Source: Arenicellales bacterium
GTDB taxonomy: Bacteria; Pseudomonadota; Gammaproteobacteria; Arenicellales; Poriferihabitantaceae
Direction: 5' to 3'
Length of the DNA stretch: 64,000 nucleotides
Assembly (NCBI GenBank): GCA_965231905.1
Contig: CBDDOO010000001.1
Span: 324,900-388,899, forward strand
Shown here: positions 5,112 through 49,314 of the stretch, in pieces
Layout of the letters: every line of letters starts with the position of its first letter
Position numbering within the stretch: position 1 is the first letter of the stretch
Program-made: the position numbers and the translations under genes
Notes under the pieces: model-generated
What the model saw: the letters and a program-made list of their open reading frames with translations, nothing else
Told to the model about the DNA's origin: nothing
Databases searched by the model: none

Positions 5112-5218
5112 ACTCGCCCAGTTTCTCGACATGAGAAAACACTCGGACTCAGTGAGGCGGATACCCTCCCTGCCCACCACAAAGCGAAATCGTGTATCAT
5201 CCCTGCCGGAGTCCAGAT

Positions 5219-9623: not shown

Positions 9624-9660
9624 CTTGTGGTGATGATTGTTTTGCTGTTTATGATGTCAG

Positions 9661-35092: not shown

Positions 35093-35737
35093 TTAGCAAT
35101 GGATTTCCCCGGACCGGATTTCCCCGGACTGGATTCTGACTACATCAGCATCGTCCATTTTTTTCAGGGCCATTGCCAGTGAGCCTTCCATATCAATGGC
35201 GCGGCAGGCATCCTCAATCAGGACTACATCGAATCCTTCCGATCGGGCGTCAAGCGCCGACCAGGCCACACAAAAATCCGTCGCCAGGCCAGCCATGAAA
35301 ATTCGCCCGAATCCACGGCCGTGGAGATAACCGGCAAGTCCGGTCGGAGTTGTCTGGTCATTTTCAAAAAACGCGGAATAGGAATCTATTTCCGGTCGAA
35401 ACCCCTTACGGAGAATCAATTCTGTATTCCTGACATCAAGCCGGGCATGGAATGCCGCTCCTGAAGAACCCTGGACACAGTGGTCCGGCCACAAAACCTG
35501 GTCGCCATAAGGCATCCGGATCTGGTCAAACGGGGAATGTCCGGTATGGCTGGACGCGAAGGAGCTATGGTTTGCAGGGTGCCAGTCCTGGGTCAGTATC
35601 CGGTGCTGGAATTTTTCCGAAACTGCGTTGATAACCGGAACAACCGCGTCCCCATCCGGGACTTCCAGCGCTCCCCCGGCGCAAAAATCGTTTTGCACGT
35701 CAATAATCAGCAGGCAATCAGTGTTGTTTGGTATCAT
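35093..35737 (-). CDS. pncA: nicotinamidase/pyrazinamidase (isochorismatase family)
   Basis: LLIIDVQNDFCAGGALEV, TQDWHPANHSSF, GLATDFCV (catalytic Cys). Start at ATG 35737 (MIPNNTDCLLIID). Confidence 0.9.
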   Translation of the reverse strand: MIPNNTDCLLIIDVQNDFCAGGALEVPDGDAVVPVINAVSEKFQHRILTQDWHPANHSSFASSHTGHSPFDQIRMPYGDQVLWPDHCVQGSSGAAFHARLDVRNTELILRKGFRPEIDSYSAFFENDQTTPTGLAGYLHGRGFGRIFMAGLATDFCVAWSALDARSEGFDVVLIEDACRAIDMEGSLAMALKKMDDADVVRIQSGEIRSGEIHC

Positions 35738-35775
35738 TTTGATTTCTGGTATTCGGATACTGTGCCATAATAAAC
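35584..35775. repeat. direct repeat copy A (pncA promoter + first ~50 codons)
   Basis: Aligns by eye with 43304-43502. It contains a ~100-nt near-identical core (GATAACCGGAA...CAGGCAATCAGTGTTGTTT), and homology starts at AGTCCTGGGTCAG in both copies. Confidence 0.85.
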
Positions 35776-35865
35776 TATCAGCAATAATCTTCCAACGCTC
35801 AGCAGACATGACTATTCAAGATTGGCTGTCTCGGCACAATGCCGGGGTCGTGCAGGTATTGTGCC

Positions 35866-36072
35866 ATGCCTGACGCAGTCCATCTTCTGACCGTCTTGGT
35901 CGTTGCCGCAGCGCTGATGTCGGCAGTTATCAGGGGAGCGGCAATCATCTGGGGAAAGGCTGACAGCGCGATCCTGAAAATCATCATCATTGTGCTATGG
36001 CTGACCGCCTTCCCGGCTATGCTGGGAATATCAGTCCTCGTCGGGCTTTTTGGTCGGCGTTCATTCGCTTGA
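35866..36072 (+). CDS. possible small two-TM membrane protein
   Basis: MPDAVHLLTVLVVAAALMSAVIRGAAIIWG...IIIIVLWLTAFPAMLGISVLVGLFG. Supported by hydrophobicity only; an antisense ORF of similar size exists. Confidence 0.3.
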   Translation: MPDAVHLLTVLVVAAALMSAVIRGAAIIWGKADSAILKIIIIVLWLTAFPAMLGISVLVGLFGRRSFA

Positions 36073-36128
36073 TTGCACCGCAATCATGAGTTACATTGTG
36101 ATCCCGATCATTATCGCAGTACCAGAAC

Positions 36129-36374
36129 ATGGCAAGCATAACAATCCGCAATCTTGACGACGACGTGAAGACGCGCCTCCGCGTACGCGCCGCTGAGCAT
36201 CACCATTCGATGGAGGAAGAGGTGCGCATCATTCTGTGCAACGCCGTGAATGGCAGGCAGGACGGTCCCCGGGATCTGGCGAAGTTCACGCGCGAGTGCT
36301 TCGCTCCCCTTGGCGGTGTGCAACTCGAACTCTCTCCACGCGGCCCGATGCGAGAACCTCCTGATTTCTCCTGA
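36129..36374 (+). CDS. FitA/VapB-type ribbon-helix-helix antitoxin
   Basis: MASITIRNLDDDVKTRLRVRAAEHHHSMEEEVRIIL is the typical FitA/StbC RHH N-terminus. Immediately precedes the PIN gene. Confidence 0.85.
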   Translation: MASITIRNLDDDVKTRLRVRAAEHHHSMEEEVRIILCNAVNGRQDGPRDLAKFTRECFAPLGGVQLELSPRGPMREPPDFS

Positions 36375-36384
36375 TGTGGTCTGC

Positions 36385-36834
36385 ATGTTCGCCATAGATA
36401 CTAATGTCGCTTCCGAACTCATGCGCCCGCAGCCGAAGCCCTCCGTCGTGGCATGGATTGCCGAACGTGACGCACAGGAGATGTATCTGACGGCGGTGAG
36501 TGAGGCGGAATTGCGCTATGGCGTCGCGATCATGCCAGCGGGCAGGCGACGAACCACATTGGAGGCCGCCATGATCCGCTGGCTTGATCATGGCTTCAAA
36601 AAGCGGATTCTCCCGTTCGACAGCGCCGCGGCCCGCGCCTACGCAGAGGTCGCGGCTGAGCGCCGCCACGCAGGCCGGCCAATCGGCGAGGCCGACTGCC
36701 AGATCGCCGCTATATGCCGCGCCCGTGGCGTTGTTCTGGTCACGCGCAACCTGCGGGACTTTCAATGTACCGGGATCGAGGTCGTTGATCCTTGGGCGGA
36801 GGTCAGCGCCCCGGAGATCTACCCAGATAGATAA
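36385..36834 (+). CDS. vapC: PIN-domain toxin (VapC/FitB type)
   Basis: MFAIDTNV (first acidic residue), SAVSEAEL, and CQIAAICRARGVVLVTRNLRDF (C-terminal acidic/PIN signature). GTG at 36376 is an alternative start. Confidence 0.85.
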   Translation: MFAIDTNVASELMRPQPKPSVVAWIAERDAQEMYLTAVSEAELRYGVAIMPAGRRRTTLEAAMIRWLDHGFKKRILPFDSAAARAYAEVAAERRHAGRPIGEADCQIAAICRARGVVLVTRNLRDFQCTGIEVVDPWAEVSAPEIYPDR

Positions 36835-37043
36835 CTGAACATGAGGTTCGGGTCTCGGTTCTGTTCGTTCACGCGTATCATCGGTCGTGAGTTTTCGGAT
36901 TATGCTCCGATTCGGACGGGTGCTGGATGAACGAGGCCGATACTTGGTCGTGCTCCTTAGAATTCAAGTCGCCCGCCTGCATTTTGTTAGACAAAGTGGT
37001 GTACTAATTCTGTCTGCTGCAAGACAGATTATTACCCCTGCAA

Positions 37044-40000
37044 TTACAGGGAGCTCAAACCACCTTGGTAGGCAGCTTCCAGCCGTTTCCTGCCTTTTTC
37101 ACCAATACGGCGCATGCCGAGCCATTTGCGCATTTCCACAACTACATCCTCCTGGTTACAGCCACAATCAATAAAGTAGCGGGACATGGCCACGAGTTCA
37201 GACATGGCAACATCTTCTGCAGCACGCTGATGTGAAAATCCATCAACCACACGAAAGCTGTCCCAGTTGGGTGCATCAGCGTTCACCAGCCACACGAATC
37301 GTGTGTCATCTTCCGTGGTAATTTGCAGCCTGTCATTGCTTTTCAGAACTTCACCAAGTACCCGGTTGATCCTGCTGCCTGCACTTTTGAAGCCATGGGC
37401 CTTGGTAATCAATTTGAACAGGACTTCCTCACGAATTGGCTGCTCATGCTGAACGATTTGCTCCATCAGACGAGCGTGTGTAGTGCGGTAGTGAAACTCG
37501 TAAAAACTGTCCTGCTTAAGGTGCAAGTCACTAGAACCTTCACTCCAAGGGATGTACTCACACTTACCCGGTATCTCAGGGGCATCCTCTACCACCTCAC
37601 CAGCAACCTTTTCCCACACCATCTCCTGGGGATCAGCCTTCAAAGAGAGATCATGGTCATCCTCATCCGTACCTGCAAGATTTGTATCAACATCCCCTTC
37701 TGCATTCCTTATCCACTGCTTCGCATCTGTCGCGTTTGCTGCGCCCTCCGAAGGCACTTCATTGTCCTCATCGAAAGACTCCAGCAACTCACGTAACTGC
37801 TGGTCCACATGATTGACACAATCCTCCGGGGCAACCCACCAGTCTGTGGACCAGATTCTCAGAATCTTCCACCCCAGTCCCTCCAGAACTTGCTGGCGCA
37901 GGAAATCCCGGTCACGTGCCGTGGCAGAACGGTGATAAGTCGCACCGTCACATTCGATACCGGCAAGATACATCCCGGCCTTGTCAGGATGAACAACACC
38001 AAGATCAATGCGAAAATCGGACACACCGATCTGGCTGTGAACCATCCAGCCCCGCTCCTCCAGCCGAATCGCAACCTGCTCTTCGAAGGGTGAGTCAAAA
38101 GTTCCCAACGGACGTTCGATCGACTCTCCGATTGCTTTCGCGCCCCGTTTGGCAAAATCCATGAAGTGCTTCATGTCTCTCACACCGGCTGCTGCTGTAC
38201 GGGACAAATCGATATCTTCCGGCTGCATGCTGGAGTAGACATGCATTTCATTGCGTGCACGGGTGATTGCAACGTTCAGTCGCCTTGGCCCGCCGTCCTG
38301 ATTCAAAGGCCCGAAATTCATCGACAAGCGGCCCGAATGGTCCTTTCCGTAGGTCATGGAAAAGTAGATGATCGAGCGTTCGTCCCCTTGCACACTCTCT
38401 ATGTTTTTCACGAAGATGGCCTCAATGTTATCTTCTGCAAAGAAAGGTTCGATCTCGGGGTAATCCCTGCGTGCCTTCTCCAGCAGGTCTTCAATGAGAA
38501 CCTGTTGTTCCTGATTGAAGGTAACCACTCCGATGGTCATGCCCGTTTTTTTGAATTCCGGATCACGCAGCCTGGATACTATGCTGTCGACCACGGCTCT
38601 TGCTTCGGGTTGATTGATCCGGTTGCCGCCTTTCTCATACAGTCCGTCACGAACATGGTGGAACGATACCGCGGTGTCGGTCGTAGCCGGCGACGGAAAA
38701 GTGATTAGCCCACCCCTGTAGTAGTTGTGATTGCTGAAGGTGATGAGAGACTCTTGTCGTGAGCGGTAATGCCACTTCAGTTGATAGGTAGGCAGATTAG
38801 CGCCCATGCATTCATCGAGGATGGATTCCAGGTCTCCAACATCAATATCGCTGTCGTTGTCCTCATCCTCCTGGCGGTTGAAAAATGAGGTCGGCGGCAG
38901 CTGCTTCGGATCACCTACAACAATGGCCTGATTCGCCCTTGCAATAGCCCCAATGGCATCCCATGGCGTGATCTGACTGGCCTCATCAAAGATCACTACA
39001 TCGAAGAACGTCCCCTCAGGGGGCAGGTACTGGGCCACCGACATGGGACTCATCATCACACAGGGAGTGAGCTTGAACAGATTGCTGCCAAGCTTTTCCA
39101 CCAACTGACGCACCGGTATATGACGGCGCTTTTTTTGAATTTCCCGACTGAGCACATGCCACGTCGAGCCTTGCGGAATATGACCACGCGAGGGGATTAC
39201 CTGGCTGAGTTTGGCAAACACGTAGGCTTGGGTAAGTTCCATGAAGTGCTCGTCCAGCTTCACGAAATCCTCAATCGTGCGCACATGCTCGGCGGGCACG
39301 AATTTTCGGATTACATCATCATTGTCCACGGCATGATTCAACCACCAGCGGTGATAGTTCACCCTGAAGGCTTCCTCGGCCGTGTTGCCTGCAAGGGCGC
39401 CTTTTTCAACGGCTTCCACTAATGACTGCATGCCTTTTGCCAAGGCATCGTTTCGAACCCACCGCCAGGCGGTCCAGGCCTTCAGCCTAGGAGCCTGTTC
39501 CAGCCACTGTGCACAAGTATCTATGGTCGTTTGCAAAAACGACTTCTCGTCAGACTTTACATGCAAGTCACCGGTCACGGCAATGGTCGTACCCAGGGAC
39601 AGTTGAGCTGCCTCAAAGGCCTCTAGTGACTGCACGAATGTGTTCGCCGATGTCTGGATCTTACCGCTCGGGCCCAACAGGTCTGTAGACTGAAGCAGCA
39701 TGATCATCGTGGATGTGGCCTCGCGATAGGCCTCTGGTGATGCGAATAGTGCACCCATCACACTTCTTAGCTCATGGCCAAACTCCGCAGCGTGTGTGAA
39801 AAGTGCAGGATCCGTGTGAATACCCTCGAACTTCCTGCCGATGACCTGATCCAAGCCCTTGAGCATCTCAAATGCCGTCCTCGTTTTTTTGGCATTTGAG
39901 AGATGGGCAAGATCGGAGGTGACACCAGAGATTTTCGAGCCCCCAGAAAATGGCTTGAGCCGGGCTTTTACGGCCTTGACACCCAGCCATTTCGCCAGGA

Positions 40001-43000
40001 ACCATTTCTCTTCGGCACTACCCAGTTGCGCCACCAAGCCATCGATATCCAGATCAAGCACGGTTTCCTTGTAGGTCACAACCGTGCTCTTAAATTGCTG
40101 GCGGTAACTTTCGATCAGCTCTGAGCCACGCTCGAGATCAGCAATCAGATCACGGTCCTCTGGGCCGAGCAAGAAGGCGTACGACTGGTTGTATGCCTTG
40201 GGCAGGATGCGCTCAAGGGCTGCAACCATTTGTAGATCACCTCGGCTCATCACCTGAATTGGCAATCCCAAGAGTTTGATCCAGGACTGTAGTGCAGCCT
40301 GCAGGTCCATTGCGGCAGCGTGCAGGTCTTTGGACTGGTCAATGGCACTCCTTTGCCAGGACGGCGACCAGTCGTCAGCTTCGACCCGGTGAAAGCAGCT
40401 CTCGCTGATATCGCCAATTTGCTCGGCATTGGCATCAATGCGCACAGCGATATTTGAATATTCCTCCAGGTTATCCTCGCTGTGCGTCTGATAATCCGGC
40501 CAGTGAAACTCCAGCGGAACTACTACAGGATTGTTGATGACCACGCCGATGGCCTTGAAAATGCTGAGCCCGTTGGGATAGGTTTTGTGGAGTTGCCGGA
40601 CGTAGGCATTGAGGTCTTCTCGCAGGTTCAGCAGGCGCTGGGACTCGCGGTCCCAGTTGGAGATTTTGGGGTGCCTGTTTTGCCACGCATGATCAAGTTG
40701 CTTGATCACATCTGTCTTTCTTGCCTTGCTCGAATGCAACTCCAGGCAAAACTTGCCTAAGCCCACATCACGCAAGCGGCGGTAGACGACATCCAAAGCA
40801 GCCGTTTTCTCGGACACGAACAGTACCTTTTTGCCAATGCCAAGGAGATGGGTGATCATGTTGGCGATCGTCTGGCTTTTACCGGTCCCGGGCGGGCCCT
40901 CAATCACGAAGTCCATGCCTTCGGATGCCGCGATGACGGCCGCCATCTGGGTGCTGTCACAGGACATGGGCAGGTAGGTGTCTTTCGGATGGCATTTCTG
41001 ATCTATCTCCTTCGGGTGCGGGAAGTCGACACCGTCGTTTCCCATATAGGTGTCCCGAGGGGTGTCGATCAGGTGTTTGACCAGGGGCGAGTTCTTGAGA
41101 TATTCAGTGCGTGCATCAAGATCCTCCCACATCAGGTACTTGGCGAAACTGAACGTGCTCAAGACCAAGTCTTCTGAAACTTCCCAACCTTCGATATCGC
41201 GAACATGCTGTCTGACGATGTTCCATATGCCATCCACGTCCAGGCCAGAGTCATCCTTTGGCAACTCCTTGGACAGTTCCGGGATTTCAAGCCCGAAGTC
41301 CTGGCGAAGCATTTGCAGCAGGGTCGGGTTGAACTGCGGCTCATCATCATGGATGCGCAGCTTGAATGCCGCATTCACGGACCTTCTTGAAAGGCTGACC
41401 GGTATCAGGATCAGGGGCGCCCGGTGGGTGCGAGAGCGTTTGTCGGTCTGGGTCCAGTTCAAAAAGCCCAGGGCCAGGTACAGAATGTTGGTGCCGCCTT
41501 CCTCAATCGCAGCCTTCGAGGCCCGGTACAACCCGATCAGCGACGCGCTCAATTGTCGCTGATCGAGTGCCGTGGTAATTCTCCCGTGCCGCATGGCCTG
41601 CAGCACCTGTTCCGCATGCAGGTCCTCCGAGTAACGCCTGCGGTGTTCCTCGCCGCTTCTCGGATCACCGGGGCTGATGACTTTCTCCAAGGGCGAGAAG
41701 GTGAAGACCTGGTCCTCTGCCAACATGTCCTCCAGCTCACCGGAATTTGTACAGATACAGGGTACCGCCCGTTTCGACCGCTTGAAGTTCAATAGCCGGT
41801 TGCGCAAGGACAGATCAAGAAGTTTTCGCTTCCAGTTTTCAACACGCGCGTCGGCGCCCACCGCATCATCCGGGGTGGGGGCATCCGGATATTCCACGTC
41901 CTCGGGCAAGTCACTCAGATCATCCAGGCCTGCATCGATCACTTCATCGACCGAAACATCCTCCTGCCCCGTCTGCGTGACCCGCTCATACAGCGGGCGA
42001 ATCCGGGCAAGGCGGGATTGCTTGATGTCGACCAGCAGCAGGAAGCTGTCTTTATCGAACAGCTTGACATTGGCCTCCTCTCTCGCTTGCTTGAACCTGA
42101 CGGCAGGGCGGTGCGCAACGTAGGTGGTCTCAAATACCAGGATCTCCTTCAGGACGACCCTTTTGCGCAGGGCCTGCAGATCCTCGACCACACTGGCGCT
42201 AAACTCAAGATCCTCCAGCCAGACACCGACAAAGGCATGGCCTTTAGTGAAAATGATCAGGGAATTAAAGCCTGCCTGTTCAAGGGCACCGGCGAATAGC
42301 AGGGTGGAGTCCATGCAGGTGACTAGACGGTGACGCTTCACCTCTTCGGGTAAGCGAATCTTTTGACCGGCATCCTCGAAACTCGCGGGGGGCTCGGCAT
42401 AGGCCAGATCCTGCCTGATGACTGCCGACCAGATGGCATTGACCATCTCACCCACTTTCTTTCGGCTTCTTGACTGGTAGCCATCAAGCTTCAGGTCACG
42501 ACCGGTTCCCTGCAGCACCTTCGCTGCAGTTCGCAGGATTTCCTGTATAAATGGCGAATTCGGTTGCACATAGGCTGCCAGGATTTCCGGCAATTCCTGA
42601 ATCCCGCCCCATTCGTTTCGACTCAGCACCTGCACATCACAAGATAACGTGGCAAGTACTTCATCCCCTGAATTCAATGAGAAATCGTAGGTACCCCGAA
42701 CCGCCTCATTGACATCCTCCAAAAATCCCGGGTTGAGTTCAATCATGCAGTCACGCAAGGATATCTCGGTATCAGGAGCCAGTCGGGTGATATGCCAGAC
42801 CTTGGGTTTGGCAAACCCCGGAGTGGTGGTGACCGTAAGCTCCAGGTCTTGATAGCTGACGTCTGTAGGGTTGTTGAGAACAATGTCCCGAAGAACGGGC
42901 ACTGAGTTTTGCTGGAGTGCCAGATTGACCTTGTGGGCCGCTGCAATCTGGATGGTGATTGCTTTGTTCTCAGTTTCTTTATTGTCTGTCTCTGAATTCA

Positions 43001-43001
43001 T
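37044..43001 (-). CDS. 1985-aa multidomain helicase-nuclease: transglutaminase-like core + DUF4011 + SF1 (Upf1/DNA2-like) helicase + Vsr/DUF559 endonuclease + DUF3320 (Hhe-like defence candidate)
   Basis: TCMDSTLLFAGALEQAG...KGHAFVGVW (Cys 42315-42317, His 42236-42238). KLLDLSLRNRLLNFK (DUF4011 hallmark, ~41781-41825). GPPGTGKSQT (Walker A, ~40870-40899). VIFDEASQI (~38973-38990). RRLNVAITRAR (motif VI). FRIDLGV...GIECDGATYH...ILRIWSTDWW (Vsr/DUF559, ~37830-38110). DUF3320-like tail. Confidence 0.9.
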   Translation of the reverse strand: MNSETDNKETENKAITIQIAAAHKVNLALQQNSVPVLRDIVLNNPTDVSYQDLELTVTTTPGFAKPKVWHITRLAPDTEISLRDCMIELNPGFLEDVNEAVRGTYDFSLNSGDEVLATLSCDVQVLSRNEWGGIQELPEILAAYVQPNSPFIQEILRTAAKVLQGTGRDLKLDGYQSRSRKKVGEMVNAIWSAVIRQDLAYAEPPASFEDAGQKIRLPEEVKRHRLVTCMDSTLLFAGALEQAGFNSLIIFTKGHAFVGVWLEDLEFSASVVEDLQALRKRVVLKEILVFETTYVAHRPAVRFKQAREEANVKLFDKDSFLLLVDIKQSRLARIRPLYERVTQTGQEDVSVDEVIDAGLDDLSDLPEDVEYPDAPTPDDAVGADARVENWKRKLLDLSLRNRLLNFKRSKRAVPCICTNSGELEDMLAEDQVFTFSPLEKVISPGDPRSGEEHRRRYSEDLHAEQVLQAMRHGRITTALDQRQLSASLIGLYRASKAAIEEGGTNILYLALGFLNWTQTDKRSRTHRAPLILIPVSLSRRSVNAAFKLRIHDDEPQFNPTLLQMLRQDFGLEIPELSKELPKDDSGLDVDGIWNIVRQHVRDIEGWEVSEDLVLSTFSFAKYLMWEDLDARTEYLKNSPLVKHLIDTPRDTYMGNDGVDFPHPKEIDQKCHPKDTYLPMSCDSTQMAAVIAASEGMDFVIEGPPGTGKSQTIANMITHLLGIGKKVLFVSEKTAALDVVYRRLRDVGLGKFCLELHSSKARKTDVIKQLDHAWQNRHPKISNWDRESQRLLNLREDLNAYVRQLHKTYPNGLSIFKAIGVVINNPVVVPLEFHWPDYQTHSEDNLEEYSNIAVRIDANAEQIGDISESCFHRVEADDWSPSWQRSAIDQSKDLHAAAMDLQAALQSWIKLLGLPIQVMSRGDLQMVAALERILPKAYNQSYAFLLGPEDRDLIADLERGSELIESYRQQFKSTVVTYKETVLDLDIDGLVAQLGSAEEKWFLAKWLGVKAVKARLKPFSGGSKISGVTSDLAHLSNAKKTRTAFEMLKGLDQVIGRKFEGIHTDPALFTHAAEFGHELRSVMGALFASPEAYREATSTMIMLLQSTDLLGPSGKIQTSANTFVQSLEAFEAAQLSLGTTIAVTGDLHVKSDEKSFLQTTIDTCAQWLEQAPRLKAWTAWRWVRNDALAKGMQSLVEAVEKGALAGNTAEEAFRVNYHRWWLNHAVDNDDVIRKFVPAEHVRTIEDFVKLDEHFMELTQAYVFAKLSQVIPSRGHIPQGSTWHVLSREIQKKRRHIPVRQLVEKLGSNLFKLTPCVMMSPMSVAQYLPPEGTFFDVVIFDEASQITPWDAIGAIARANQAIVVGDPKQLPPTSFFNRQEDEDNDSDIDVGDLESILDECMGANLPTYQLKWHYRSRQESLITFSNHNYYRGGLITFPSPATTDTAVSFHHVRDGLYEKGGNRINQPEARAVVDSIVSRLRDPEFKKTGMTIGVVTFNQEQQVLIEDLLEKARRDYPEIEPFFAEDNIEAIFVKNIESVQGDERSIIYFSMTYGKDHSGRLSMNFGPLNQDGGPRRLNVAITRARNEMHVYSSMQPEDIDLSRTAAAGVRDMKHFMDFAKRGAKAIGESIERPLGTFDSPFEEQVAIRLEERGWMVHSQIGVSDFRIDLGVVHPDKAGMYLAGIECDGATYHRSATARDRDFLRQQVLEGLGWKILRIWSTDWWVAPEDCVNHVDQQLRELLESFDEDNEVPSEGAANATDAKQWIRNAEGDVDTNLAGTDEDDHDLSLKADPQEMVWEKVAGEVVEDAPEIPGKCEYIPWSEGSSDLHLKQDSFYEFHYRTTHARLMEQIVQHEQPIREEVLFKLITKAHGFKSAGSRINRVLGEVLKSNDRLQITTEDDTRFVWLVNADAPNWDSFRVVDGFSHQRAAEDVAMSELVAMSRYFIDCGCNQEDVVVEMRKWLGMRRIGEKGRKRLEAAYQGGLSSL

Positions 43002-43190
43002 TTTTATTTTTACCTCTGAAGAATTCGTGAGCTCTGGAAGGTGTACAAGTCCACCCTATTTGGCACTGGATTTGATTTTGAATCAAGGATTGTAAGGGGG
43101 ATAGGAGTTACAGGCTATGATGAGGGGTGGCGTGTTGGTCCAGGAAATGGAGGAATTTGAGTCGGTATTGAGCATGTGTATTCATGCCCG

Positions 43191-43457
43191 CTAGATTGCC
43201 TGAACGGGCAGCTCGATAGAATCCCCTGATGCCGTGTCCGATGTGTTGACATTGCATGGCGCTCCTCCAGAGGCGGAATGCCAAAGGTTTCTGAACTTAT
43301 AAAAGTCCTGGGTCAGCATCCGGCGCTGAAATTTTTCCGAGATCGCATTGATAACCGGAAAGACCGCGTCCCCATCCGGGACTTCCAGCGCTCCCCCGGC
43401 GCAAAAATCGTTTTGCACGTCAATAATCAGCAGGCAATCAGTGTTGTTTTGGTTCAT
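43191..43457 (-). pseudogene. pncA: truncated pncA 5' fragment (first ~50 codons, then unrelated sequence)
   Basis: MNQNNTDCLLIIDVQNDFCAGGALEVPDGDAVFPVINAISEKFQRRMLTQD matches pncA, then diverges exactly at the repeat boundary (43304). Confidence 0.8.
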
Positions 43458-43502
43458 TTTGATATTTCAATTTCTGGTATCCGGGGCTATGTCATAATAA
43501 AC
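43304..43502. repeat. direct repeat copy B (pncA promoter + 5' end)
   Basis: Partner of 35584-35775, in the same orientation. Confidence 0.85.
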
Positions 43503-43547
43503 GAGAGGCAGTGTCAGTGTATACGCTCCCGTGAGAACACACAGGTT

Positions 43548-44798
43548 TTACTGCCATAGGGCGCTCATCGGCACGGCATAACAATTTTTCTGATTCAGCG
43601 GCAATGTGTTATTGCCACAATAGAGCAGGATACCCCCTTGAAAGTTTTTGCCTGCCTGAGCCGCTAAACGAGCAAGGCCAGTACTGTCTTTCGCTTGAAT
43701 ACTGGCCGTTTTTTTTATCTCTATCCCCCACAGCCGTTTGCGGCGCTCTATCACCAGATCAACTTCCACCTGATCCTTGTCCCGGAAATGACTGAATTTC
43801 AGTTCACTATCCAGCCAACTGGCCTGACAAACAAGTTGCTGCACAACAAAGCTTTCCAGTACCGGGCCGAAATGATTATCATGTTTATTCCAGTCATCCG
43901 CTTTCAGCCCACTCAACGTAGCGGCCAGGCCGGAATCAATCACATGAACCTTGGGGGTTTTGATCAGTCGCCTGGATTGATTACGATGCCAGGCAGGCAA
44001 CCGGCGAACCAGAAACAGGCGCTCGAGTACAGTCAGGTATTTTTCTGCTGTCTCCCGACGCATCTTCAATTCATTGGCTATATTGCTGACATTAAGGAGC
44101 GTACCTGTACGATAGGCCAGCATTTCCATCAAGGCCAGCATTTCTCCTTCATCACGAATTGCGGCTACATCTTTCACATCGCGCTGGATAATGGCATTGA
44201 GGTATTGTCGATGCCATTGTCTGGCTCTGGCTGCAGAACGGGTATTCGGCTCTGGGTAACCACCCTGGCATACGGCCTCGGCGACACCACCAATTACACT
44301 TTGTTCACCGATAACCTGTGGAAAAATATTGCCGCTGAGCATGGCGTCCAGCAGGGAGTTTTCACTGCGATACTTCTCTTGCTCGGTTAATGGGAAGAGA
44401 TTGATTACTTCAACCCTTCCAGCCAGAGATTCCTGTACGCCGGGCAGCAGCAGCAAATTAGCGGAGCCAGTCAACAGGAAGCGCCCTGCGGCCGCTTTGT
44501 GATCAAACCTTTCTTGATCGATACTGGCCTTGATGGCTGGCAGCAGTTCAGGCGCCCTCTGTACTTCATCCAGAATGACTGGTTCTGGCAGGCTCTGGAT
44601 AAAGCCGACGGGGTCTTGTTTTGCTACGGCCAGCAAGGCTCCGTCATCAAAATTGATGTACGTATGGTCAGGGCAATATTTCCTCGCCAGAGTGGTTTTG
44701 CCAACCTGGCGAGCTCCCAGCAAACAGACGACCGGCGTGTCAGCCAGCGCCTCTTGCAGCAAGGGAGCGGCGTATCTCGGGAGTAACGGTTCAGCCAT
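43548..44798 (-). CDS. AAA+ ATPase, AAA_14/DUF4143 family
   Basis: LLGARQVGKTTL (Walker A), VILDEVQ (Walker B), and a C-terminal DUF4143-like region. Confidence 0.85.
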   Translation of the reverse strand: MAEPLLPRYAAPLLQEALADTPVVCLLGARQVGKTTLARKYCPDHTYINFDDGALLAVAKQDPVGFIQSLPEPVILDEVQRAPELLPAIKASIDQERFDHKAAAGRFLLTGSANLLLLPGVQESLAGRVEVINLFPLTEQEKYRSENSLLDAMLSGNIFPQVIGEQSVIGGVAEAVCQGGYPEPNTRSAARARQWHRQYLNAIIQRDVKDVAAIRDEGEMLALMEMLAYRTGTLLNVSNIANELKMRRETAEKYLTVLERLFLVRRLPAWHRNQSRRLIKTPKVHVIDSGLAATLSGLKADDWNKHDNHFGPVLESFVVQQLVCQASWLDSELKFSHFRDKDQVEVDLVIERRKRLWGIEIKKTASIQAKDSTGLARLAAQAGKNFQGGILLYCGNNTLPLNQKNCYAVPMSALWQ

Positions 44799-44911
44799 AG
44801 CGTCCAGATGCCGATTACAGTTTCGTCTGATTGTCGATTATATCAGCGTCCAGATGCCGATTACAGTTTCGTCTGATTGTCGATTATATCAGCGTCCAGA
44901 TGCCGATTACA
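44799..44911. repeat. 46-bp tandem repeat, 2.5 copies, abutting the ATPase start codon
   Basis: AGCGTCCAGATGCCGATTACAGTTTCGTCTGATTGTCGATTATATC at 44799-44844 and 44845-44890, plus a 21-nt partial copy. Each unit carries TATAAT on the gene strand. Confidence 0.9.
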
Positions 44912-44982
44912 ATTCCGTGAGAACACACATTACTGTCAAAACTTTACTGTCAAAACTTATTGACAGAAAAATCAGAAGTTAA

Positions 44983-46178
44983 GGAATCTCTGATTAATCA
45001 GTTTCTATTGTATAATTTTTGTACTTCATACTGACTGGAGATATTTCCGATGCGCCAGAGTACTTTTTCCGAAGCTGGATTTGACAAATACAAGAAACAG
45101 ACGCGCAAGGAGCGTTTTCTGGATGAGATGGAGCAAATCATTCCGTGGGTGGAGTTGAATGCAGTCATCGAGCCTTTTTATCCCAAACCGCAAGGGGCAG
45201 GCCGCAGGCCGATTGGAATAGACCGGATGTTGCGGATTCACTTTCTGCAACACTGGTTCAGTCTTTCGGACCCGGCTGCCGAGGAAGCGTTGTACGATTC
45301 GTTGTCGATGCGCCGGTTTGTGGGCATAGACCTGGGTCGGGAGCCGGCTCCCGACGAGACCACGATCTGCAAGTTTCGTCATCTGATGGAGAAGCATAAC
45401 CTGGGGGAACGATTGTTCGGACTGGTCAATGAATATTTGGGTGAGAACGGACTGAAGGTGAATCGGGGTACGATCGTGGATGCCAGCATCATCTGCGCAC
45501 CGAGTTCGACCAAGAACCGGGAGAAGAAACGAGACCCCCAGATGCACTCGACGCGCAAGGGGCAGCAATGGTACTTTGGTATGAAGGCGCATATCGGTGT
45601 GGACAGTCGCAGCAAGCTGATTCATTCGGTGGTGGCTACGCCGGCGAATGTTCATGATTCACAGGTTCTGCCGGAACTTCTGCACGGGAAAGAGACCCGT
45701 GTATGGGGAGACTCGGCCTATACGGGTCAGAAGGCGGTGATTTCACAGGTAGCGCCGGAGGCGAAGGATTTCACTCATTCGAAGGGGACGCGCTACCGCA
45801 AATTGACGGAGAAGGAGCGCTTGAAGAATCGAACCAAGTCCCGGATACGGTCGAAGGTGGAACATCAGTTCGGTATTCTCAAGCGGCAGTTCGGTTTTAC
45901 CCGGGTTCGTTACCGGGGGCTGGAGAAGAACACGCATCGACTGGTTGTGGCCTGTGCCTTAAGCAATCTGGTGATGGCGAAGAAAGTACTGTTGAGACAA
46001 AGGCGGTTGAAACTGCAGGCTACGTACGCCTGAAAAATGAAAAGAGGGGGAGAATGCTTGTATTTCCCCGCTCCCGCTCACTGATTCCGGGCCATTCTGT
46101 CTTTCAGACCCACTCATATCCCGGATTTACAAAAATGACTACCCAAAATCCCCAAAACTCGTATTGTTCAGACTTTCC
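44983..46178 (+). mobile_element. IS5-family insertion sequence (1196 bp) with 4-bp TTAA target-site duplication
   Basis: IRL is GGAATCTCTGA (44983-). IRR in reverse complement is GGAAAGTCTGA (-46178). TTAA is present at 44979-44982 and 46179-46182. Single IS5-type transposase. Confidence 0.85.
45050..46033 (+). CDS. IS5-family transposase
   Basis: 327 aa, closely resembling E. coli IS5 InsH from memory (FLDEMEQIIPW, RMLRIHFLQHWF.LSD, DAS.I.APSSTKN, GDSAYTGQ, VEH.FG.LKRQFGF.RVRYRGL.KN). Confidence 0.95.
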   Translation: MRQSTFSEAGFDKYKKQTRKERFLDEMEQIIPWVELNAVIEPFYPKPQGAGRRPIGIDRMLRIHFLQHWFSLSDPAAEEALYDSLSMRRFVGIDLGREPAPDETTICKFRHLMEKHNLGERLFGLVNEYLGENGLKVNRGTIVDASIICAPSSTKNREKKRDPQMHSTRKGQQWYFGMKAHIGVDSRSKLIHSVVATPANVHDSQVLPELLHGKETRVWGDSAYTGQKAVISQVAPEAKDFTHSKGTRYRKLTEKERLKNRTKSRIRSKVEHQFGILKRQFGFTRVRYRGLEKNTHRLVVACALSNLVMAKKVLLRQRRLKLQATYA

Positions 46179-46317
46179 TTAAGTACACTCATGGTGCTAT
46201 GACCCCTATCCCGTCCAAGTGAGTCTGGAGAGGGCAGCCGACTTGTGATCAGTGAGGGGATGGAAGACCAGACCAACCGATCACCACTGACAGCAACCGA
46301 CGACAACAACCGGGAAC

Positions 46318-47514
46318 ATGAACATGAAAAGAGCAATCACACTGGCGGCATCAATCACCCTTCTGGCTCCTGTATTCACTGTCCAGGCGGACGGATGGGA
46401 GCAATATAATCCGGACGGATGGGCGCAATATAATCAATTAGGCTGTTGGGCGAGTGTAAGCCAGCAAGCCTGCTTTGCAATGGCAACATGGAACAATGAC
46501 TATATGTACGGCGGCGAAGGCAATGACATCCTGATCGGAGGCGCGGGCAATGACTGGCTGGATGGCGGCGATGGGGATGACTCCCTGCACGGCAGTATAG
46601 GAAACGACAGGCTGGGCGGAGGTGATGGCAATGACCACCTGTACGGCGGCGATGGGGATGACTCCCTGCACGGAGGCGCGGGCAATGATTTGCTACGTGG
46701 CGGCGCGGGCGATGATACCCTGTATGCTGGCGCGGGGGATGATGATAGCGCCATGGTAGCCACCATGGTGGACATTGACACAGCGGAGGAACCAATAGTT
46801 ATTGTTGGTTATCATAACTCCCTGGACGGAGGCGATGGCAATGACACCCTGCACGGAGGCGATGGCAATGACCTCTTGGACGGCGGCGATGGGGATGACC
46901 GCCTGTACGGACGCGAAGGCCATGACTTCGTGATCGGAAGTTATGGCAATGATTATCTGATCGGATATAAAGGAGATGACACCCTGCACGGAGGCGATGG
47001 CAATGACCGCCTGTACGGAGGCGAAGGCAATGATTATCTGACCGGAGGCCATGGCCATGACTACCTGAACGGAGGTTATGACGATGACCGCCTGAACGGA
47101 GGTTATGGCAATGACCGCCTGTACGGAGGTTATGGCAATGATTATCTGTTCGGAGGCCCAGGCAACGACCGCCTGAACGGCGGCGAGGGCAACGATTGGA
47201 TACTCGGAGGCAGTGGCAATGACAAATTGGCCGGTAATGCCGGCTCGGACTTCATGAGTGGCGGGGACGGCGCGGATACCTACAAACTACGCGGGAACCG
47301 CAAAAACCGCAAAGACCGCGATATTATCCTTGCTGATGAAACCGACAATATCGCTGATCAATTCAGCAACAAGGCTTTGGATCGTATCAACATCAACGAT
47401 GTCACTCTGCCAAGTATCGAGATCGGGGGACGGACATTTACGCTGGACGCGAGCATTCTGGCTGACCATGCCCACCGGGTAACCGGCGCGGATATTATCT
47501 ACCGGAAGCCGTGA
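46318..47514 (+). CDS. RTX (hemolysin-type Ca-binding nonapeptide repeat) protein with N-terminal signal peptide
   Basis: About 25 GGxGxDxUx repeats (GGAGNDWLDGGDGDDSLHG...). N-terminus MNMKRAITLAASITLLAPVFTVQA. Confidence 0.85.
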   Translation: MNMKRAITLAASITLLAPVFTVQADGWEQYNPDGWAQYNQLGCWASVSQQACFAMATWNNDYMYGGEGNDILIGGAGNDWLDGGDGDDSLHGSIGNDRLGGGDGNDHLYGGDGDDSLHGGAGNDLLRGGAGDDTLYAGAGDDDSAMVATMVDIDTAEEPIVIVGYHNSLDGGDGNDTLHGGDGNDLLDGGDGDDRLYGREGHDFVIGSYGNDYLIGYKGDDTLHGGDGNDRLYGGEGNDYLTGGHGHDYLNGGYDDDRLNGGYGNDRLYGGYGNDYLFGGPGNDRLNGGEGNDWILGGSGNDKLAGNAGSDFMSGGDGADTYKLRGNRKNRKDRDIILADETDNIADQFSNKALDRININDVTLPSIEIGGRTFTLDASILADHAHRVTGADIIYRKP

Positions 47515-47540
47515 CCGCGACCAGTTAGAGAGAACAGACC

Positions 47541-47705
47541 ATGACGATTACAACCGCGTTAATTTTGCTGATTGTTACCATTGTTGGTGTTGTTGGTGTT
47601 GTTGGTGTAGGCGTGGCGCTGGCGGGCGTGATCATCCCGGCCAGCAATCGCCGTGGCCCGATGCGGGAACCTCCTGTGTTACAGCGCGACCGGCATCATT
47701 TCTGA
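47541..47705 (+). CDS. possible 54-aa single-TM peptide
   Basis: My own translation (below the track cut-off): MTITTALILLIVTIVGVVGVVGVGVALAGVIIPASNRRGPMREPPVLQRDRHHF. No clear RBS. Confidence 0.2.
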   Translation: MTITTALILLIVTIVGVVGVVGVGVALAGVIIPASNRRGPMREPPVLQRDRHHF

Positions 47706-48376
47706 TATGCGGGACATGGTAAATATAAATCTCTGTTCTCGTTCGCGGACACGTAGAGCATGAAATTTATTTGTTTAACTCCATCCGAATTCGTGTTCCA
47801 ATCGCCGGTATCAGGATTTTCCGGGCCGCTAAATGCATAAGTCCCCGGCCAATCTTCCAAGCTTCTGTCTATTGTATAATCCGGAAAGGGATCATCGCAA
47901 GAGAGACTACCATTGACGAGTTTAATACGCAGATTGTTCTCAGCCTGGAAATTCATTAATATGACCCGGTACCCAGTAATCGGGAGCGATGTTACTGTTA
48001 TTGATCCGGTGTAATTCCCCTGGAATTGTACAAGCAAAGTACCTCCAAAAGTCCATCGGCTTACTTCTGTCGCGTTTTGTGTCGCTAGTCTGTCCTGCGC
48101 ATCCAGAGCGTTCAGCGTTCCATCAGCTCCCGTTCCACCGCTTCCCGTTCCATCGTTTCCTGTTCCATCGTTTCCTGTTCCACCGCTTCCCGTTCCGCCG
48201 CTTCCCATTTCACCGCTTCCCGTTCCGCCGTTTGGCGAGACATCTGCATGAGCAGGCAATAATACGCTGTTTATAATCGGCTTATTCCATGCGGTGACGG
48301 CAACCCCTCCAACGGTCAGGCTCTTGATGATTTGTGATCTTTTCTGTAAGTCTGTCTTTTCTTCTTCTCGATTCAT
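47696..48376 (-). CDS. secreted hypothetical protein with Gly/Thr/Ser pentapeptide repeat tract
   Basis: N-terminal hydrophobic segment ending in AHA, then GGTGSGEMGSGGTGSGGTGNDGTGNDGTGSGGTGADG, then a beta-rich C-terminal domain. Confidence 0.6.
   Translation of the reverse strand: MNREEEKTDLQKRSQIIKSLTVGGVAVTAWNKPIINSVLLPAHADVSPNGGTGSGEMGSGGTGSGGTGNDGTGNDGTGSGGTGADGTLNALDAQDRLATQNATEVSRWTFGGTLLVQFQGNYTGSITVTSLPITGYRVILMNFQAENNLRIKLVNGSLSCDDPFPDYTIDRSLEDWPGTYAFSGPENPDTGDWNTNSDGVKQINFMLYVSANENRDLYLPCPAYQK
48116..48235. repeat. 15-bp in-frame tandem repeat, ~8 copies
   Basis: CGTTCCACCGCTTCC-type units counted from 48116 to 48235, encoding the GTGSG/GTGND repeats on the minus strand. Confidence 0.85.
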
Positions 48377-48486
48377 GACTATGGTCGAATAGTGAATGTA
48401 TGTTATTGTGCCGGGACATCATTTTGATTTTCGCGAATGAACCTATATCATAATAGTCTGCCAGTGACAATCTTCCAGCAACAGAC

Positions 48487-49314
48487 ATGACTGACGACAT
48501 AGCGGCCATGAAGCTCTACCATCAGGTAGACCGGGTATTCAATGAGTTGGACTCCCTCGGGATCAAGGATCAGGACCCGGTCGATGTATCCGTGTTGAGC
48601 GCTTATGATCAATACCATTATCTGGGCACCGATGCCGTGGATGAGGCGATTGAAAAGCTGAATATCAGTTCAAACATGGAAATCATGGAAATCGGTTCTG
48701 GAATCGGTGGCCCGGCGCGCTATCTTGCACATACTTCCGGGTGCAGGGTGACTGCTCTGGAACTGCAACCGGAATTGAATGCCACGGCGATGAAACTGAC
48801 AGCCCGTTGTCGCCTCCAGGACAAGGTGACCCATCTGTGCGGCGACATACTTGATGGCCCTCCAGAGAACAGACAATATGACGCGCTGGTCAGTTGGCTT
48901 ACCTTTCTGCATATTCCCGACCGCCCCGCTCTCTACCGAAACTGCTTCGCCGCCTTGAAGCCCGGTGCCGGCCTCTATGTTGAAGATTATTTTGAGCGCA
49001 ATCCCCTGAGCGATCAGGAGAAACAGGTATTGAGCCGGGAAGTCCACTGTGACCGTGTTCCGACTATGGCTGAGTATTTTGATGAGCTTTGTGAGGCGGG
49101 ATTTACCCGAATCGGGCTGGTGGACAAATCAGCCGAATGGACCCGGTTTGTCGTCGAGCGGCAATCCGCCTTCGAAAATGCCAGGGAGCGCAACGAAGAC
49201 CTGCACGGGAAAAAGATCGTGAATGGCCTGTCGGAGTTTTACAGCGCCATTGTCAATCTGTTTACGGCCGGGAATCTCGGCGGAATCTGCTTCACGGCCT
49301 GGAAACCCGGATAA
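48487..49314 (+). CDS. class I SAM-dependent methyltransferase
   Basis: EIGSGIGGPARYLA (motif I), acidic end of beta-2 (VTALELQ), and DALVSWLTFLHI (motif post-II/III). Confidence 0.85.
   Translation: MTDDIAAMKLYHQVDRVFNELDSLGIKDQDPVDVSVLSAYDQYHYLGTDAVDEAIEKLNISSNMEIMEIGSGIGGPARYLAHTSGCRVTALELQPELNATAMKLTARCRLQDKVTHLCGDILDGPPENRQYDALVSWLTFLHIPDRPALYRNCFAALKPGAGLYVEDYFERNPLSDQEKQVLSREVHCDRVPTMAEYFDELCEAGFTRIGLVDKSAEWTRFVVERQSAFENARERNEDLHGKKIVNGLSEFYSAIVNLFTAGNLGGICFTAWKPG

What the first reader, a model, noticed from the sequence alone, without database searches (positions are those of the whole stretch)
35584..43502. ~7.7-kb insertion inside pncA bracketed by ~190-bp direct repeats that duplicate the pncA promoter and first ~50 codons; no integrase present
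Copy A (35584-35775) belongs to the intact pncA. Copy B (43304-43502) heads a truncated fragment that diverges exactly at the repeat edge (after ...LTQD). The repeats are similar but not identical: a near-identical ~100-nt core with diverged flanks. That pattern is expected if an integrative element brought its own replacement 5' end for the target gene. The interval carries only a small membrane ORF, a FitAB/VapBC pair and the 1985-aa helicase-nuclease. No recombinase gene is present, so the mobilisation machinery has been lost or acts in trans.
Basis: partly seen in the sequence, partly recalled or inferred. Interest (0 to 1): 0.65.

Follow-up and report, generated by a model that had tools for sequence, protein, structure and literature searches.

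The report
Defence island with pncA recombination scar
The repeat is real: a dead stub of the nicotinamidase gene pncA marks where an anti-phage gene block entered an integrase-free defence hotspot, most likely by ordinary homologous recombination between related bacteria.

Summary
Copy A (35584-35775) and copy B (43304-43502) are a true direct repeat of the pncA 5' end. The coding part is 142/154 identical, with an 87-nt perfect core. Copy B stops after codon 51 (...LTQD).

Four related genomes carry the empty site, with a methyltransferase (MT) gene and pncA back to back. The whole stretch 35.8-48.4 kb is therefore a variable hotspot, not just the 7.7 kb flagged. It holds a third partial copy of the MT-pncA intergenic region beside MT.

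The cargo is defence-type:
- an anti-phage helicase-nuclease (NCBIfam ProA, PADLOC PDC-S37);
- an intact FitA/PIN toxin-antitoxin pair;
- beyond copy B, a PDC-S01 ATPase, an IS5-type element and an RTX protein.

No integrase lies in 23.8-31.6 or 35.1-51.7 kb of the window, or among the called genes of the two fetched island-bearing relatives.

The key result concerns window 43373-36109 (the 3' end of the stub, a spacer, ProA and vapCB). This tract is 99.6% identical to relative L095, whose backbone is only 86% identical. Its left breakpoint lies inside the stub.

The insertion is discrete and pncA is restored. Exchange by homologous recombination fits better than a site-specific element. This is a new member of a known kind, of moderate interest.

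The parts
35093..35737 (-). Intact pncA (nicotinamidase/pyrazinamidase, 214 aa from ATG MIPNN).
   Evidence: NCBIfam NF008623 scores 201.7 bits against a cutoff of 174. It aligns end to end with the A. baumannii nicotinamidase structure 2wt9, E 3.8e-73. Pfam Isochorismatase.
35584..35812 (-). Copy A of the repeat. It covers pncA +1..+154 (35584-35737) plus a full copy of the MT-pncA intergenic region (35738-35812), including a copy of the MT start codon.
   Evidence: A promoter-like TTGGAA-17-TATTAT lies at 35795-35767 (the scan as a whole was not above chance). The upstream part shares the 'AGTATC' variant with L081's right copy.
35839..36072 (+). 77-aa hydrophobic small ORF of unknown function.
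   Evidence: Only a sub-threshold BrkB hit. Window 35897-36088, which covers most of it, has no mismatch to L081. It is absent from L095.
36129..36834 (+). Intact type II toxin-antitoxin pair: FitA-like RHH antitoxin (36129-36374) and PIN-domain VapC toxin (36385-36834).
   Evidence: Pfam PF22513 4.2e-20 and PF01850 8.7e-15. vapC is deleted, at different places, in L081 and L095.
37044..43001 (-). 1985-aa SF1 helicase plus PD-(D/E)xK-type nuclease with domains DUF4011, AAA_11/12, MTES_1575 and DUF3320. It is an anti-phage 'ProA' / PDC-S37 protein and an Hhe relative.
   Evidence: NCBIfam NF058533 antiphage_ProA scores 2189.6 bits against a cutoff of 1500. The Hhe model scores 882, below its cutoff of 2000. 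PADLOC PDC-S37 1304 bits. Pfam domains. The gene alone (43031-36964) recurs in an unrelated context in L088.
43002..43303 (-). 302-nt spacer between the stub and ProA, of unknown origin. No family hit and no terminator-like site on the gene strand.
   Evidence: The sequence is shared with L095 within the 99.6% tract. It is absent upstream of ProA in L081 and L088.
43304..43502 (-). Copy B: a dead pncA stub (-45..+154). It is chimeric. Positions -45..+84 are of the window-lineage type. Positions +97..+154 are of the L095/L083-clade type. The residual ORF 43191-43457 encodes 51 PncA residues plus 37 unrelated ones.
   Evidence: The two private changes against L095 (+97 V33F, +134 H45R) are both nonsynonymous.
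36109..43373 (.). Recently exchanged tract, 99.6% identical to L095. It covers the 3' end of the stub, the spacer, ProA, vapC and vapB. The flanking backbone is about 86% identical.
   Evidence: 27 differences across 43360-36627 and 3 in 239 nt across 36347-36109. Differences are dense outside the tract.
43548..44798 (-).
   Evidence: Homologues at 84-90% sit in unrelated contexts (L086, L087); the shared block is 44862-43540. The cassette is flanked by an exact 15-nt direct repeat, 43529-43543 / 44915-44929.
44979..46182 (+). IS5-family insertion sequence (DDE transposase 45050-46033) with terminal inverted repeats and TTAA at both ends.
   Evidence: Pfam DDE_Tnp_1 and DUF772. Inverted-repeat pair 44979-44998 / 46163-46182.
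46318..48376 (.). RTX calcium-binding repeat protein (46318-47514, +) and a 226-aa Gly-rich, probably secreted, protein (47696-48376, -). These are further hotspot cargo and are not recombinases.
48418..48493 (-). Third partial copy (DR1): the original MT-pncA intergenic region running to pncA +5, still attached to the MT gene (48487-49314, +).
   Evidence: The conserved backbone resumes here in all relatives.

Best explanation
The interval is one module of an integrase-free defence hotspot wedged between two conserved, divergently transcribed core genes, a methyltransferase (MT) and pncA.

Shown:
- The ancestral state is MT<->pncA with a roughly 70-nt intergenic region.
- In this genome about 12.6 kb of accessory DNA sits there. 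Its pncA-proximal 7.5 kb is ProA + VapBC + a small ORF.
- Copy B is a non-functional pncA 5' stub. The same stub/cargo junction occurs in relative L095.
- A 7.3-kb tract, from inside the stub to just past vapB, is 99.6% identical between two lineages whose backbones are 86% identical. Its left end lies between pncA +84 and +97.

Inferred:
- The junction after +154 arose once, probably in an L095/L083-like lineage whose own pncA was interrupted and at the same time replaced by a downstream intact copy. The founding event could have been homology-facilitated illegitimate recombination or Campbell-type insertion of a circle carrying pncA homology.
- The block then moved between species by host RecA-type homologous recombination, using the pncA 5' homology as the left arm.
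- The 87-nt perfect core between copies A and B is a conserved stretch homogenised by crossover or gene conversion, not an att core.
- Because every left-hand copy of the pncA upstream region is followed by same-strand cargo, ProA is probably read from a captured pncA -10 region.
For: - Empty sites occur in L082-L085. Occupied sites with different content occur in the window, L081 and L095.
- Window-L095 comparison: the initial blastn alignment (43502-36627) is 99.26% over 6876 nt, against 86.2-86.7% for the flanks. By mismatch map the near-identical tract is 43373-36109: differences fall at +5..+84, then only 27 across the ~6.7 kb from 43360 to 36627.
- L095's left copy is contiguous with its MT gene and intergenic region, and is about 93% identical to its sister L082 throughout.
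- The stub segment +97..+154 is closest to the L082/L083/L095-left alleles (2-8 differences in 60). It is further from the window's own copy A (10) and from L081 (12).
- Copy B upstream shares TATTATGAYATAG with the MT-adjacent copy. Copy A upstream shares its variant with L081.
- The patchwork continues elsewhere. No mismatch to L081 in 35897-36088, next to 80% identity in 35800-35896. The first 114 nt of ProA are identical to L081 in a gene that is 92.8% identical overall.
- No integrase gene was found in any of the three islands. The 226-aa ORF is a Gly-rich, probably secreted protein.
- The ProA gene alone occurs in an unrelated context, L088.
- A third assembly (57-kb contig) holds 99.3%-identical ProA, an intact VapC and a P0003-type pncA.
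- Literature: integrase-free core defence hotspots proposed to move by flank recombination (PMC10250203); RecA exchange at up to about 15% divergence, MEPS and HFIR (PMC6382021).
Against: - No single simple event reproduces every detail. The 87-nt identity of A and B needs an extra gene conversion or a coincidence of alleles; Poisson P is about 0.002-0.02 at the divergence seen between lineages.
- Direct repeats of the target bracketing each module, in tandem, are also the classic signature of site-specific accretion.
- The direction of transfer rests on only 60 nt of stub sequence.
- Identity runs between the two lineages' alleles next to the mapped breakpoint are short (24 nt or less), below the usual MEPS.
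- The event that founded the +154 junction cannot be reconstructed.
- Promoter capture rests on a consensus scan that was not above chance (12 found, 10.8 expected).
Confidence: 0.6

Rival explanations
1. A decayed or trans-mobilised site-specific integrative element (CIME-like). An element with an attP that mimicked pncA -70..+154 integrated into the pncA 5' end through an integrase that has since been lost or is encoded elsewhere. Copies A and B are attR and attL, and the 87-nt core contains the crossover site. The ATPase/IS/RTX block is a second element accreted in tandem.
For: - Direct repeats of the target flank the block, with a perfect core and diverged arms.
- The target gene is restored. 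Empty sites exist.
- Three nested copies resemble tandem accretion as described for CIMEs (PMC5704250).
- The same junction occurs in a second species.
Against: - No integrase or integrase remnant was detected in the window ORFs checked (23.8-31.6 and 35.1-51.7 kb) or among the called genes of L081 and L095.
- Under this model L095's right copy should carry the same element-derived 5' part as the window's copy A. Instead it differs at 6 positions in +9..+84 and has an unrelated upstream.
- L095's two copies are not identical in the supposed core: 5 differences in +31..+96.
- L081 carries the same cargo with a different left junction, at +13 and followed by Phd.
- The right end of the near-identical tract lies inside the island, at about 36109, not at an att site.
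- No pncA 5' duplication occurs in 80 pncA loci of other taxa.
Confidence: 0.22
2. A local tandem duplication of the pncA 5' region in this lineage, with cargo dropped in between the two copies later.
For: Two same-strand copies lie close together. The 87-nt perfect core could be a remnant of a once-identical duplication.
Against: - No relative shows a duplication without cargo.
- The 3' part of the stub is a foreign allele: 10 of 60 positions differ from copy A, but only 2 of 60 from L095's stub.
- The stub and cargo are shared as one 99.6% tract with a genome whose backbone is 86% identical.
Confidence: 0.05
3. Transposition driven by the neighbouring IS5-family element (a composite or one-ended transposon) placed the block and created the repeats.
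For: A DDE transposase gene lies 1.5 kb beyond copy B.
Against: - There is a single IS copy with its own inverted repeats and a TTAA at each end, which is a simple late insertion.
- It lies outside the repeat-bracketed interval.
- L095 and L081 have the block without any IS.
- Repeats of 75-200 nt that are only 92% identical are not target-site duplications.
Confidence: 0.02

Closest known systems
Core defence hotspots (cDHS1/2 of Pseudomonas aeruginosa; Johnson et al. 2023, PMC10250203)
   Same: Variable anti-phage cargo sits between the same conserved core genes in every relative. There are no integrase or other mobile-element hallmarks. Occupancy differs among close relatives. Movement is proposed to occur by recombination in the conserved flanks.
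   Different: Here the flanking core gene itself is partly duplicated, up to three times, which leaves datable scars and a mapped breakpoint. The host is an uncultivated gammaproteobacterium; the nearest named relative by CysG is Ca. Spongiihabitans at 66-67%. The hotspot is small, 0-12.6 kb.
Integrative islands and their integrase-less derivatives (CIMEs) with tandem accretion (ICESt1/3 family; review PMC5704250)
   Same: Direct repeats of the end of a target gene bracket each module. The target gene stays intact. Modules lie in tandem. There are no integration genes in the island.
   Different: CIMEs keep attL/attR recognised by a related element's integrase, and they target a gene's 3' end. 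Here no integrase or helper is seen in any of seven related loci, the 5' end is repeated, and breakpoints are not at one position.
Homology-facilitated illegitimate recombination / Campbell-type single-crossover insertion (de Vries & Wackernagel 2002, as summarised in PMC6382021)
   Same: One homologous anchor plus one arbitrary joint, or a circle carrying a gene fragment. Either gives a truncated copy plus an intact copy of the anchor gene around foreign DNA. That is exactly the L095 architecture.
   Different: These are known from laboratory transformation experiments. Here the mechanism is inferred from sequence alone. The donor side of the illegitimate joint is unknown, so microhomology cannot be checked.
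ProA / Hhe single-protein helicase-nuclease anti-phage systems (NCBIfam NF058533, NF042953; PADLOC PDC-S37, Hhe)
   Same: Full-length match to the ProA equivalog model above its cutoff. The domain order is DUF4011, SF1 helicase, MTES_1575 nuclease, DUF3320.
   Different: It falls below the Hhe equivalog cutoff (882 against 2000 bits). No paper describing 'ProA' was found in the searchable library, so function rests on the database label.

Membership tests
Site-specific integrative element (genomic island / CIME) | Integrase or recombinase gene in or next to the element (may be absent in a CIME) | tested here: not met
   Pfam, NCBIfam and PHROGs runs on the ORFs from pncA to MT (35.1-49.3 kb), and Pfam on large neighbouring ORFs at 23.8-31.6 and 47.7-51.7 kb, found only an IS5-type DDE transposase outside the interval. 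None appears among the called genes of L081 and L095.
Site-specific integrative element (genomic island / CIME) | Direct repeats (attL/attR) flanking the element, with an unoccupied attB in relatives | tested here: met
   Repeats found. Four empty sites found.
Site-specific integrative element (genomic island / CIME) | The same crossover position and the same element ends in independent insertions | tested here: not met
   Left junctions fall at +5 (window DR1), +13 (L081) and +154 (window, L095). Right junctions fall at about -70 (window, L081) and -20/-7 (L095). L095's two copies differ within the putative core.
Site-specific integrative element (genomic island / CIME) | Excision to a circle and restoration of the empty site | not testable with these tools
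   This needs reads or PCR from the source sample.
Core-gene-flanked defence hotspot | The same conserved flanking genes in all relatives, with variable content between them | tested here: met
   MT and pncA-dctPQM flank content of 0 kb (L082-L085), about 7 kb (L081, L095) or 12.6 kb (window).
Core-gene-flanked defence hotspot | Cargo dominated by known or candidate defence genes | tested here: met
   ProA/PDC-S37, PDC-S01 ATPase and VapBC. Also non-defence RTX and a probably secreted protein.
ProA anti-phage helicase-nuclease | Full-length match above the curated equivalog cutoff | tested here: met
   NF058533 scores 2189.6 bits against a cutoff of 1500, residues 26-1965 on model positions 1-1903. 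Anti-phage activity was not tested.
Hhe | Match above the curated equivalog cutoff | tested here: not met
   NF042953 scores 882.3 bits against a cutoff of 2000, and only the C-terminal half matches. It is a relative, not a member.
Type II VapBC/FitAB toxin-antitoxin | RHH antitoxin gene immediately upstream of a PIN toxin gene, both intact | tested here: met
   PF22513 and PF01850, with a 10-nt gap between the genes. Toxicity was not tested.
PncA nicotinamidase (copy A) | Full-length equivalog match and alignment to a solved nicotinamidase | tested here: met
   NF008623 scores 201.7 against 174. 2wt9 aligns over residues 5-207. Copy B lacks everything after codon 51, so it is not a member.
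In-situ tandem duplication | Both copies derive from the resident allele, and cargo-free duplicates exist in relatives | tested here: not met
   The 3' part of the stub is a foreign allele. No cargo-free duplication was seen in any relative.

The most novel reading that the evidence does not exclude
The pncA stub is not a passive scar but the targeting device of a recombinase-free mobile defence cassette. On this reading the cargo carries a fragment of a conserved core gene, including that gene's most invariant 87 nt. That would give it locus-specific, RecA-dependent entry into the same site across species that differ by about 14%. It would always leave an intact pncA behind. It would also place ProA under a copy of the pncA (NAD-salvage) promoter, possibly linking expression of the defence gene to NAD status.
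Probability: 0.15. Interest if true: 0.65.

Novelty: new member of a known kind. Interest (0 to 1): 0.35.

Why it matters
How integrase-free defence hotspots are built and exchanged is described as an open question in PMC10250203. This locus gives a clean natural example. The recombination left readable scars. The empty site, three differently filled sites and a dated inter-species tract with a mapped breakpoint can all be compared. It also places a ProA-type helicase-nuclease and an intact VapBC pair in an uncultivated, probably symbiotic gammaproteobacterial genus. The result is useful and instructive, but it does not overturn anything.

Tried and rejected
- Exact look-ups of four window proteins found nothing, so the window's own genome is not retrievable.
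It gave no close genomes, but it served as a control set of 80 pncA loci.
- The metagenome scan with ProA gave one close hit (L088) in an unrelated context and five hits at 47-49%.
- The viral-contig scan gave nothing.
- Plasmid and phage DNA searches gave only ProA-like genes at about 65% identity on plasmids and no phage match.
- The closest ATPase homologues lie in unrelated contexts, so no ancestral 'ATPase-pncA' arrangement was found.
- Rfam, at gathering and permissive thresholds, gave nothing relevant in 35-49 kb.
- The promoter and terminator scan was not above chance and is used only as a hint.
- No paper on 'ProA' or PDC-S37 was found.
- P0011, an N-terminally short PncA, looked like another insertion. 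It is an empty site with a frameshift.
- An assembly artefact was considered and rejected, because the same junction occurs in an independent assembly (L095).
- Xer/dif-type (IMEX) insertion was considered. No dif-like sequence was seen by eye in the repeat, but this was not formally tested.
- The order of events and the direction of transfer could not be fully resolved.
Full report
**1.
pncA lies on the minus strand (35093-35737; ATG = MIPNN). It is a full-length nicotinamidase: NCBIfam NF008623 scores above its cutoff, and it aligns end to end with structure 2wt9.

Its first 154 nt recur at 43304-43457, with 142/154 identical. The longest perfect run is 87 nt (35643-35729 = 43363-43449). Similarity continues about 40 nt upstream of the ATG, with an 8-nt insertion in copy B. 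A 44-nt core probe hits only these two sites in the window, against 0 expected. Copy B leaves the pncA sequence exactly after codon 51 (LTQD). The residual 88-aa ORF cannot encode an enzyme.

**2. Cargo between the copies.**
- A 77-aa hydrophobic ORF.
- An intact FitA-like/PIN toxin-antitoxin pair.
- A 1985-aa helicase-nuclease with domains DUF4011, AAA_11/12, MTES_1575 and DUF3320. It matches the NCBIfam equivalog 'anti-phage protein ProA' over its full length (2189.6 bits, cutoff 1500) and PADLOC PDC-S37 (1304 bits). It falls below the Hhe cutoff.

No recombinase is present in the interval.

**3. The surroundings change the picture.**
PncA homologues at 82-88% identity come from 2-3.5 Mb contigs of one uncultivated genus. 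The nearest named relative by CysG is Ca. Spongiihabitans (Arenicellales) at 66-67%.

Four of these genomes (L082-L085) have a methyltransferase (MT) gene and pncA back to back, divergently transcribed and about 70 nt apart. In the window the MT gene is at 48487-49314, so 12.6 kb of accessory DNA separates the two core genes.

Beyond copy B lie:
- an AAA_14-DUF4143 ATPase (PADLOC PDC-S01);
- a 46-nt tandem repeat;
- an IS5-family element with TTAA at both ends;
- an RTX protein;
- a Gly-rich, probably secreted, 226-aa protein.

Next to MT (48418-48493) sits a third copy of the intergenic region, ending at pncA +5. Copy A's upstream (to 35812) repeats that whole intergenic region, including the MT start codon.

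**4. Two relatives carry the helicase module at the same place.**
L081 is arranged MT, intergenic copy to +13, Phd antitoxin, ProA (92.8% nt), vapB and a vapC remnant, small ORF, full intergenic copy, pncA.

L095 is the informative one. Its MT gene, intergenic region and pncA up to +154 are contiguous and about 93% identical to its sister L082. The identical junction ...CAGGACT|TTTATAAG follows. Then come the spacer, ProA and vapC'B, and then an intact pncA from about -20. L095 is therefore literally an insertion in pncA, with a roughly 175-nt repeat and a restored gene.

**5. The shared tract.**
The initial blastn alignment, window 43502-36627 against L095, is 99.26% identical over 6876 nt. 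The backbones on both sides are 86.2-86.7% identical.

The mismatch map refines this:
- Differences fall at pncA +5, +6, +15, +24, +39, +63, +78 and +84.
- After that come only +97 and +134, both private nonsynonymous changes in the window's stub, and 25 more across the rest of the ~6.7 kb down to 36627.
- Beyond a 279-nt deletion in L095, near-identity continues to about 36109 (3 differences in 239 nt) and then stops.

The recently exchanged tract is thus 43373-36109. Its left breakpoint lies inside the stub and its right breakpoint lies between vapB and the small ORF.

A third assembly (57-kb contig) has ProA at 1972/1985 aa identity, an intact VapC and an L083-type PncA on one contig.

**6. 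Allele typing of the repeats.**
The stub's +97..+154 segment is closest to the L082/L083/L095-left alleles (2-8 differences in 60). It is further from the window's copy A (10) and from L081 (12).

The stub's upstream shares TATTATGAYATAG with the window's MT-adjacent copy. Copy A's upstream shares its variant with L081's right copy.

The stub is therefore chimeric, window-type at its 5' end and L095-clade-type at its 3' end. The promoter-proximal part of the working gene is of the island-associated type.

Further patchwork appears elsewhere:
- No mismatch to L081 in 35897-36088, next to 80% identity in 35800-35896.
- The first 114 nt of ProA are identical to L081, although the gene overall is 92.8% identical.

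**7. Mobility of the parts.**
The ProA gene alone (43031-36964) occurs at 89% identity in an unrelated metagenomic context with no pncA pieces (L088). The ATPase gene likewise occurs in unrelated contexts (L086, L087). No close DNA was found on plasmids, phages or viral contigs. Among 80 pncA loci of other taxa, none has a second pncA 5' fragment.

**8. Interpretation.**
The best-supported reading is an integrase-free defence hotspot flanked by core genes. This is the kind described for P. aeruginosa (PMC10250203).

Its modules are gained, swapped and eroded by recombination among related species. The pncA stub is the scar of one founding event. That event was either homology-facilitated illegitimate recombination or Campbell-type insertion of DNA carrying pncA homology, and both give a truncated copy plus an intact copy (PMC6382021). 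The stub has since served as left-hand homology for allelic exchange.

The 87-nt perfect core is the most conserved part of the gene; window copy A and L081 differ at only 2 positions in +31..+96. Chance identity has P of about 0.002-0.02. It was therefore probably homogenised by the crossover or by gene conversion.

The site-specific, CIME-like model (PMC5704250) explains the nested repeats elegantly, but several findings count against it:
- no recombinase was found in any of the three islands;
- L095's two copies are not identical in the core;
- L095's right copy differs from the window's copy A where both should be element-derived;
- L081 has a different left junction;
- the tract's right breakpoint lies inside the island.

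I give it about 0.2. Tandem duplication, IS5-mediated transposition and assembly artefact are rejected.

**9. Function.**
pncA copy A is the working gene, with a promoter-like TTGGAA-17-TATTAT upstream. Copy B keeps only the -10-like hexamer (the scan was not above chance).

In the window, L081 and L095, a left-hand copy of the pncA upstream region is followed within 300-450 nt by same-strand cargo (ProA or Phd-ProA). No minus-strand terminator-like site lies between copy B and ProA. Promoter capture is therefore plausible but unproven.

The anti-phage function of ProA and the PDC-S01 ATPase rests on database models only.

**10. Verdict.**
This is a new member of a known kind, of moderate interest.

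Noticed in passing
window 44799-44936: A 46-nt unit repeated 2.7 times directly upstream of the PDC-S01 ATPase start. It contains the best sigma-70-like match of the region (TTGTAA-18-TATAAT, 44912-44883). Homologue L087 appears to carry a single copy of the unit: both window copies align to the same L087 stretch, which lies at the contig end.
   Followed up: partly
window 43529-43543 and 44915-44929: An exact 15-nt direct repeat, CCGTGAGAACACACA, brackets the ATPase cassette just outside the block shared with L086/L087. It occurs nowhere else in the window or in the 95 loci fetched up to then (0.01 expected). It may be the insertion scar of that single-gene cassette.
   Followed up: partly
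window 44979-46182: An IS5-family element (transposase 45050-46033) with 20-nt imperfect terminal inverted repeats and TTAA at both ends. It looks like a simple late insertion into the hotspot.
   Followed up: partly
L081 ~9254 and L095 ~9643-9651 (window equivalents 37035-36492 and 36626-36348): The vapC toxin gene has been removed by two different deletions in the two relatives. It is intact in the window and, as protein P0393, in a 57-kb contig. This looks like independent decay of the toxin-antitoxin pair.
   Followed up: partly
L085 9948-10099: In an empty-site relative (a circular 2.3-Mb contig at 3581x coverage), the pncA 5' end is split across two reading frames and the gene is called from an internal start (190 aa). 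This may be a frameshifted pncA.
   Followed up: no
L081 10704-13649: L081 has an extra 981-aa UvrD-type helicase with a Top1 zinc ribbon between pncA and dctP. It is absent from the window and from the other relatives. This may be a second small variable spot on the other side of pncA.
   Followed up: no
window 5192-7366 and 12451-14601: There are restriction-type genes elsewhere in the window: a BbrUII/HgiDII-like N-terminal region, and a type I HsdR-like protein (EcoAI family, below cutoff). They suggest another defence region at about 5-15 kb.
   Followed up: no
window 46318-48376: An RTX calcium-binding repeat protein (9 HemolysinCabind stretches) lies next to a 226-aa protein with GTGSGG-type Gly-rich repeats and a hydrophobic N-terminal segment. 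The 226-aa protein has no family hit and is alone in its 90% cluster.
   Followed up: partly
window 42901-43014 and 35897-36088 vs L081: There are short tracts identical to L081: 114 nt at 100%, and about 190 nt with no mismatch. They sit inside regions that are otherwise 80-93% identical. They are further recombination patches within the island.
   Followed up: partly
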